A stretch of DNA of 64,000 nt from contig NW_018405922.1 in the NCBI RefSeq assembly GCF_002113885.1, positions 218,477-282,476 on the forward strand. Reading direction: 5' to 3'. Under the pieces are notes generated by a model. It made no database searches and was not told the origin of the DNA. It worked only from the letters and a program-made list of their open reading frames with translations. A program made the translations under genes and the position numbers. Source of the stretch: Mizuhopecten yessoensis (taxonomy: Eukaryota). Positions within the stretch are counted from its first letter, which is position 1, and the number at the start of each line of letters is the position of its first letter. Below are positions 35,636 to 35,858 of this stretch, piece by piece.

Positions 35636-35858
35636 CTAATGGGGATAGGGATAACTACTGAGCAAGGGTATTTGCGATCGGATGACCAATCTGGATTGGG
35701 ACAACTACTTGAGCAAGGGTATTTGAGATCGGTTGTCCAATCGGGATTGGGACAACTTTTTGAGCAAGGGTATCTGACATGTTGTCCATCGATGATTGAG
35801 GCAATGGCCAACACCAGGGAAACTAAGAGAAGGAAGGAGAAGATAGAAACTGTTTCAT
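35636..35858 (-). pseudogene. Frameshifted (or mis-assembled) secreted Cys-repeat peptide precursor nested antisense in an ETS intron
   Basis: Restoring two single A bases gives MKTVSIFSFLLLVSLVLAIASIIDG-QHVR-YPCSKSCPNPDWTTDLK-YPCSSSCPNPDWSSDRK-YPCSSSYPYPH* (74 aa): a hydrophobic leader followed by 51-bp repeat units. Confidence 0.45.

What the first reader, a model, noticed from the sequence alone, without database searches (positions are those of the whole stretch)
35636..35858. Nested antisense peptide-precursor-like gene (signal peptide + YPCSxSCPNPDW repeats) in the ETS intron
Seen on the - strand: ATGAAACAGTT needs one more A to read MKTVSIFSFLLLVSLVLAIASIIDG, a convincing signal peptide. 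Three 17-codon units follow, each preceded by R, K or RK and carrying a CxxxC loop. The third unit lacks one A relative to the second and has TAG in place of TGG. Both lesions are single-A losses. The same leader also reads as a pyrimidine tract plus AG (ttctccttccttctcttag), so a spliced start is an alternative. Inference: a multi-copy cyclic peptide precursor (neuropeptide-, toxin- or antimicrobial-like), either pseudogenised or damaged by sequencing error. I do not recognise the family.
Basis: partly seen in the sequence, partly recalled or inferred. Interest (0 to 1): 0.72.

Follow-up and report, generated by a model that had tools for sequence, protein, structure and literature searches.

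The report
Decayed intron repeat mimics peptide gene
A four-copy, roughly 50-base repeat inside an intron of a scallop transcription-factor gene reads, across small frameshifts, like a secreted ring-peptide precursor, but it is likely non-coding DNA, because half of its apparent signal peptide is an older copy of the repeat read in another frame.

Summary
The described sequence is there, antisense in an intron of an ERG/FLI-like ETS gene of the Yesso scallop. The breaks are not sequencing errors: contigs of three DNA studies show the same letters. The array has four copies, not three, spaced 49, 51 and 50 nt. The fourth copy (35774-35822) is the second half of the 'signal peptide', read one base out of register. 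The first half is a pyrimidine tract. An aliphatic frame makes an open, Cys-rich neighbouring frame four times likelier, so leader and CxxxC units are not independent signals. The Cys frame shows no synonymous excess, and the last unit has lost a Cys as well. A shorter allele lacks one unit and keeps the damaged last unit. I found no paralogue, homologue or transcript. Best reading (0.6): an aged, copy-number-variable minisatellite with a latent reading frame. A dead peptide gene (0.2) or a spliced living exon (0.08) is not excluded: the ATG-AAA placement and raised GC are hard to get by chance.

The parts
29500..37077 (+). Host intron of an ERG/FLI-like ETS transcription-factor gene (coding exons 29103-29499, 37078-37143, 38638-39341)
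   Evidence: Exons translate exactly to P0004, labelled Mizuhopecten yessoensis LOC110450348; Ets domain E 8.5e-35; splice 37143/38638 in two RNA-type contig sets
35856..35860 (-). AG followed directly by an ATG that is out of frame with the leader; its own frame stops after 11 codons
   Evidence: no gap here in contigs of X4, X7, X13 or X14, X15
35823..35850 (-). Pyrimidine tract ending in AG; gives the first half of the apparent signal peptide (VSIFSFLLL); acceptor-like, phase 1 to the open frame
   Evidence: 24 of 25 nt pyrimidine; 48 tracts of at least 23/25 in 583 kb, both strands; acceptor listing
35774..35822 (-). Unit 0: decayed 49-nt copy of the repeat; read in the open frame it is the second half of the leader (SLVLAIASIIDGQHV), read in the units' register it is FPGVGHCLNHRWT
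35723..35773 (-). Unit 1, 51 nt (YPCSKSCPNPDWTTDLK in the open frame)
35672..35722 (-). Unit 2, 51 nt (YPCSSSCPNPDWSSDRK), 45 of 51 nt identical to unit 1; 35683-35733 is absent from a second allele
35622..35671 (-). Unit 3, 50 nt, decayed: one base short near 35659, second Cys lost, TAG at 35638-35636 in the Cys register
   Evidence: same in both alleles
35425..35895 (-). Stop-free frame of 156 codons without an ATG before the leader; passes from the aliphatic register (unit 0) into the Cys register (units 1-2) and back (unit 3)
   Evidence: no Pfam family

Best explanation
This is a four-copy tandem repeat of 49-51 nt in an ETS-gene intron, with decayed outer copies and a variable copy number, and it is likely non-coding, the peptide-precursor look likely being a by-product of how its frames join. 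Shown: the copies, their non-triplet spacing (49, 51, 50), the homology of the leader's second half to the repeat, the shorter allele, and breaks shared by all haplotypes seen. Mechanism (inferred): a ~51-nt segment was duplicated by slippage or unequal crossing-over; the inner copies stayed alike (88%) while the outer ones drifted (57% and 75%) and lost 2 nt and 1 nt. One register of the unit is rich in Val/Ile/Ala/Pro. The register one base earlier then tends to give Cys and Trp (NNT followed by Val, Ala or Gly codons). The 2-nt loss at the end of unit 0 switches a reader from the aliphatic register into the Cys register, and the 1-nt loss in unit 3 switches it back, so one long frame stays open. 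A neighbouring pyrimidine tract supplies the Phe/Leu/Ser first half of the leader. No protein is made (inferred).
For: Unit 0 homology. Register coupling: among 13-codon stretches of this genome, 16.1% of 4,027 aliphatic ones against 4.0% of 36,589 others have an open frame with 2 or more Cys one base earlier. No constraint in the Cys frame: unit 1/2 has 1 synonymous of 5 changed codons; unit 1/3 has 0 synonymous, 0 conservative, 7 radical and 1 stop; unit 2/3 has 1 synonymous of 8. Unit 0 differences fall evenly on codon positions in every register. Copy-number allele: a 133-nt contig beside a 184-nt one in X4 and X7, with length and mismatch places as predicted for loss of 35683-35733; contig ends at 35682 (X14) and 35711 (X15) fit the same allele. 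Indels are common in such arrays here: 58 of 126. Single copy at DNA and protein level. No relative in 5.8 billion proteins or 1.84 billion representatives (3 hits, all long repetitive proteins without the motif). Zero depth from two raw RNA runs over 35431-36093; two RNA-type contig sets cross the acceptors unspliced at intron-level depth.
Against: An ATG-AAA one base out of frame directly before the leader, behind an AG, is what a dead gene would show; only 2 of 74 background leaders have ATG-AAR within 18 nt, and the full combination is expected about 0.03 times per genome (post-hoc criteria). The element is 46% GC against 35% for the intron and 48% for the ETS exon; 6% of 2,373 background windows reach that. 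Between units 1 and 2 none of Y, P, C, C, P, N, P, D, W changed. The leader ends in I-D-G then Q, a plausible cleavage site (recalled -3/-1 rule; SignalP not available). The 5' 18 nt of unit 0 match weakly, so only its 3' ~30 nt are firmly homologous. RNA evidence is thin: 4 runs of unknown tissue, 19% of each raw run read, and the ETS exon was near zero in the raw runs too. Small secreted orphan genes are often missing from protein databases (general knowledge).
Confidence: 0.6

Rival explanations
1. Dead gene: a once-functional orphan gene for a secreted precursor. Signal peptidase would cut after IDG, cuts at R/K/RK would release 12-17-residue peptides closed by a CxxxC disulfide, likely acting as defence or signalling peptides. 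It was killed by a break after the start codon and is decaying from the last unit. The units would have been born as an out-of-frame copy of the gene's own signal-peptide end.
For: ATG-AAA placement, raised GC and rarity; core residues unchanged between units 1 and 2; bivalve multi-domain Cys-peptide families do leave frameshifted pseudogenes (PMC4558851).
Against: No parent or sister gene in the genome, not even by the leader's DNA, whereas MgCRP-I genes share a conserved pre-pro region across dozens of copies; no homologue; no KR or RR site; needs the unusual origin of units from the signal sequence; no synonymous excess.
Confidence: 0.2
2. Living spliced exon: an upstream antisense exon supplies the start and splices in phase 1 to one of three AGs; the break in unit 3 only changes a tail behind the RK site, so one or two loop peptides are still released.
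For: All three AGs (35859, 35850, 35823) are in phase 1 with the open frame; the tract at 35823 is strong; a phase-1 intron inside the signal peptide is the MgCRP-I layout; no change in 35734-35858 in contigs of X4, X7, X13.
Against: No signal-like first exon with a strong donor on the - strand above 35860 in the window; no joint at the element among the 15 joints listed (5 more not shown), and contigs X14-5 and X15-12 run through the acceptors unspliced; with the strongest AG most of the hydrophobic core is intron.
Confidence: 0.08
3. Relic of a gene in the other register: the ancestral protein was the aliphatic repeat TLAQVVVPIxIGxPIxN, in frame with the leader, and the Cys reading arose only from the later 2-nt and 1-nt losses.
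For: This is the only one of six frames with no stop in units 1-3 (the gap codon set aside) and it is open in unit 0 too; unit 1/3 has 2 synonymous and 3 conservative of 9 changed codons.
Against: No match in the genome, Pfam, PDB or papers; the one viral hit is an antisense 8-residue coincidence; numbers are too small to show selection. The large protein collections were not searched with this register (caps spent).
Confidence: 0.07
4. Sequencing or assembly error hides an intact gene.
For: Both breaks lie at short A runs.
Against: Contigs from three studies (X4, X7, X13; none marked as the source of this DNA) show no gap at either place, and a divergent allele keeps the short last unit and its TAG.
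Confidence: 0.02

Closest known systems
Intronic minisatellite (VNTR)
   Same: Head-to-tail 49-51-nt copies, most alike in the middle, decayed at the ends, non-triplet indels, copy number differing between alleles.
   Different: Only four copies, one locus, GC-richer than its intron, and it happens to carry a long open frame with a leader.
Founder region of the northern-gadid antifreeze glycoprotein gene (PMC6410882; abstract and 12 passages seen)
   Same: A latent signal-peptide stretch next to minisatellite-like duplicates, and a small frameshift in a 5' duplicate that links it to the repeated codons in one frame.
   Different: There the gene is expressed and selected and non-coding orthologues are known; here no in-frame start, transcript, function or orthologue is shown.
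Multi-MgCRP-I precursors of Mytilus (PMC4558851; 12 passages and section 16 seen)
   Same: Bivalve, signal peptide then 2-4 duplicated Cys modules, phase-1 intron in the signal peptide, frameshifted pseudogenes.
   Different: Six-Cys C-C-CC-C-C modules, KR/RR site, conserved pre-pro region and 67 family members; here two Cys per unit, no KR/RR, single copy.
Molluscan multi-copy neuropeptide precursors (Yesso scallop set, PMC5996578)
   Same: Overall layout of leader plus repeated short peptides flanked by basic residues.
   Different: [quoted passage not shown]

Membership tests
Minisatellite / VNTR | Tandem copies of a unit of tens of bases | tested here: met
Minisatellite / VNTR | Copy number varies between alleles | tested here: met
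   133-nt against 184-nt contigs in X4 and X7, matching prediction; fitting contig ends in X14, X15
Minisatellite / VNTR | No reading frame under purifying selection | tested here: inconclusive
   No synonymous excess in the Cys frame, but only 5-9 changed codons per pair
Multi-copy neuropeptide precursor | Signal peptide behind an in-frame start codon | tested here: not met
   ATG out of frame in the window and in three DNA studies; no first exon found
Multi-copy neuropeptide precursor | KR/RR convertase sites between copies (rule recalled; KR/RR also stated for MgCRP-I) | tested here: not met
   Sites are single R, single K and RK
Multi-copy neuropeptide precursor | Orthologues in related molluscs | tested here: not met
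   searches need shared 5-mers or annotated proteins, other scallop genomes could not be searched
Multi-copy neuropeptide precursor | Expression in nervous tissue and detection of mature peptide | not testable with these tools
   Tissues of the laid runs are not given
MgCRP-I / multi-MgCRP-I | C-C-CC-C-C array | tested here: not met
   Two Cys per unit against the consensus
MgCRP-I / multi-MgCRP-I | Multigene family with conserved pre-pro region | tested here: not met
   Leader DNA finds only itself at E <= 10
MgCRP-I / multi-MgCRP-I | Phase-1 intron within the signal peptide | tested here: inconclusive
   Phase-1 AGs present, no partner exon or junction
De novo proto-gene of the gadid AFGP type | Latent signal peptide joined to repeats by a frameshift in a flanking duplicate | tested here: met
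   2-nt gap at the end of unit 0; precedent
De novo proto-gene of the gadid AFGP type | Non-coding orthologous sequence in sister species | not testable with these tools
   No other animal genome can be searched here (no relatives held)
De novo proto-gene of the gadid AFGP type | Transcription and translation | tested here: inconclusive
   No reads in two raw runs; unspliced low-depth contigs in two others

The most novel reading that the evidence does not exclude
A secreted disulfide-loop peptide gene caught at birth (or just after an early death): an intronic minisatellite supplies both the end of a signal peptide and, one base out of register, the Cys-loop peptides it would export; an antisense transcript spliced to one of the phase-1 AGs makes it in some tissue, and alleles differ in peptide copy number. 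It would be a bivalve parallel to the cod antifreeze gene, with cargo and address label made from the same repeat.
Probability: 0.1. Interest if true: 0.7.

Novelty: not a real feature. Interest (0 to 1): 0.2.

Why it matters
On the best reading it is ordinary intronic DNA, and the lesson is methodological: a hydrophobic frame and a Cys/Trp-rich frame are coupled by the genetic code (four-fold here), so decayed repeats beside pyrimidine tracts can imitate signal-peptide-plus-cyclic-peptide genes in genome scans. If it were expressed, it would be a new orphan peptide and a clean example of a secreted gene assembled from one repeat read in two registers.

Tried and rejected
Own-genome searches: DNA of the element and of the leader plus upstream find only this locus; protein search gave 8 other matches at E 0.5-6.7, all simple repeats or unrelated; two tight motif patterns hit only units 1 and 2; a loose YPCxxxCP pattern gave 184 matches against 252 for the control, and the 30 that I translated were unrelated. 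Protein collections: nothing at E <= 10 for lengths 34-111 and 73-2000; the 3 representative hits are summed scores on long repeats; ESM Atlas no usable hit, recognition 1740 and 1317, which shows neither absence nor novelty. Metagenome scan: 2 loci, both NAD-dependent epimerase-like genes sharing PNPDWSSD by chance (family name by my reading of the translation); viral scans nothing real. Pfam: only zf-MYND at E 0.3; PDB: SETD2 at E 0.04-0.7, a chance CSSxCPN match; C2H2-finger, Bowman-Birk, antistasin and oxytocin resemblances were considered from memory and dropped for wrong Cys spacing or missing residues. Single-sequence AlphaFold: pLDDT 53, uninformative. Rfam: 0 matches. The bacterial promoter scan does not apply to an animal. 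No RNA holder listed on record. X2 gave no contig on the element and no run covered 35350-35579; a hole proves nothing. Further decayed copies before unit 0 or after unit 3: not significant. Papers: motif searches found 0 papers; topic searches gave listings only, apart from those read. PMC8398477 (12 passages) and PMC11960512 (3 passages) added nothing; PMC6425005 supplements (two large files cut when stored) gave only unrelated matches, so uncut parts may bear on the claim. Earlier scan notes: none near, none by sequence or words, 8 unrelated in this genome.

Full report
Setting. The window lies on contig C2595 of a 988-Mb genome. Three + strand exons (29103-29499, 37078-37143, 38638-39341) translate exactly to P0004, which its source labels Mizuhopecten yessoensis, an ERG/FLI-like ETS factor with orthologues in three other scallops. 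The finding lies antisense in the 7.6-kb intron 29500-37077, in a single-copy stretch between dispersed repeats.

The observation. On the - strand an ATG at 35858 opens a frame that stops after 11 codons. Another frame is open from 35895 to 35425 and reads VSIFSFLLLVSLVLAIASIIDG-QHVR-YPCSKSCPNPDWTTDLK-YPCSSSCPNPDWSSDRK-YPCSVVIPIPIR... with no Met before the leader. The third unit is one base short and has TAG, as reported, but it has also lost its second Cys, its Asn and its Asp.

Are the breaks errors? No. Of four DNA-type runs from four studies, three cover the element; none has a gap at either break. X13 spans 35623-36150 with 3 substitutions, all upstream of the ATG, at depth 3.7. X4 and X7 each give a 184-nt contig identical to the window and a 133-nt contig with 7 other letters laid on 35580-35706. 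Removing 35683-35733 predicts a 133-nt contig with mismatches at 35685, 35692, 35707 and 35708, which accounts for the two unlisted differences and the clipped end. Contigs of X14 and X15 stop at 35682 and 35711, where that allele leaves the reference (the second by my arithmetic). So a two-unit allele occurs in three studies, and it keeps the short last unit and its TAG.

A fourth copy. The 49 nt before unit 1 align to it at 28 positions with one 2-nt gap; 1 of 4000 genomic controls and 0 of 4000 shuffles reach that score. Local alignment gives 13 of 5000, and six other flanking or inner segments were tested: unit 3 is significant, the five flanks are not. The repeat finder independently lists four copies spaced 50, 51 and 49. 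This unit 0 encodes the second half of the leader. In the leader's register the four copies read SLVLAIASIIDGQHV, TLAQKVVPIPIGQPIS, TLAQVVVPIQIGHPIA and TLAxVVIPIPIRHHLA; in the Cys register unit 0 reads FPGVGHCLNHRWT. The open frame therefore runs aliphatic register, then Cys register after the 2-nt loss, then aliphatic again after the 1-nt loss. The first half of the leader is a tract of 24 pyrimidines in 25, which yields Phe, Leu and Ser in any frame.

How unlikely is the gene-like look? Ten 19-residue stretches in the window, this one included, are as hydrophobic. Among 77 triplet-period arrays only this one has an in-frame leader. Multiplying background rates gives 3.5 such Cys arrays per genome, 1.3 with a nearby ATG and 0.03 with ATG-AAR (3 of 252 frames times 823, 299 or 6 of 1,199,760 anchor positions). 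These figures overstate rarity, because the criteria were drawn from the finding and because the two registers are coupled: an aliphatic stretch has an open frame with two Cys one base earlier in 16.1% of cases against 4.0%. They still leave the ATG-AAA and the raised GC (46% against 35%) as real points for a coding past.

Selection. Units 1 and 2 differ at 6 nt: 1 synonymous and 4 non-synonymous codons in the Cys frame, none in the core residues. Against unit 3 the Cys frame has 0 and 1 synonymous codons of 8, with a stop; the aliphatic frame has 2 of 9 and 2 of 7 with no stop. The numbers are small, but they do not single out the Cys frame.

Relatives and expression. No paralogue by DNA, protein or pattern. 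No homologue in the large protein sets, Pfam, PDB, metagenomes or viruses. The motif is in no paper of the library searched and not in the supplements of the Yesso scallop neuropeptide survey. Two raw RNA runs, 1,865 million letters read from each, put no depth on 35431-36093, but they barely cover the ETS exon either. Two contig sets guessed to be RNA cover the element at depth 2-5, against about 11 on the spliced ETS exon, and cross the acceptors unspliced. No signal-like first exon with a strong donor lies upstream in the window.

Reading. Most likely (0.6) a decayed, copy-number-variable minisatellite with a latent frame and no product. A dead secreted-peptide gene (0.2) fits the ATG and GC but needs a lost parent, no detectable relatives, non-canonical cleavage sites and units derived from its own signal sequence. 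A living spliced exon (0.08), a relic in the aliphatic register (0.07) and error (0.02) follow.

Known systems. It fails the defining tests for MgCRP-I (PMC4558851; passages and section 16 seen) and for canonical neuropeptide precursors. Its architecture most resembles the non-coding founder of the gadid antifreeze gene, where a latent signal peptide was linked to repeats by a frameshift in a flanking duplicate (PMC6410882; abstract and passages seen). That is a resemblance in layout; membership would need orthologues and transcripts that I could not obtain. Cleavage-site rules and the dropped motif resemblances are recalled, not from a call.

Verdict. Observation partly confirmed, interpretation partly supported, interest 0.2. 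The bold reading, a proto-gene that makes both label and cargo from one repeat, has probability about 0.1 and would merit 0.7.

Noticed in passing
window 54950-56314 (+): One long open frame with an IgGFc-binding domain (PF17517, E 2.3e-42).
   Followed up: no
window 5504-6812: 39-nt minisatellite of 33.6 copies that is stop-free in several frames; another case of a repeat giving long open frames.
   Followed up: no
window 38408-38518: Very high-copy short repeat in the last ETS intron, covered by hundreds of partly fitting RNA reads from other copies; SINE-like by its behaviour, no Rfam match.
   Followed up: partly
window 35085-35350, 36067-36150, 36315-36756, 33221-33883: Dispersed repeats flank the single-copy stretch; the first has at least 40 other copies at 67-80% identity.
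   Followed up: partly
window 35540-36013 (+): A 157-codon stop-free frame on the sense strand over the same array; 3 of 6 changed codons between units 1 and 2 are synonymous in it, no Pfam match.
   Followed up: partly
window 35580-36150: In X4 and X7 the shorter allele is identical to the reference over 35734-36150 but has 5 substitutions in 35580-35682, as expected if it arose by unequal crossing-over between two haplotypes.
   Followed up: partly
window 35658-35789 (-): A 44-codon ATG-started frame in the aliphatic register ending at a TAG in unit 3; no match in genome, Pfam or PDB.
   Followed up: yes
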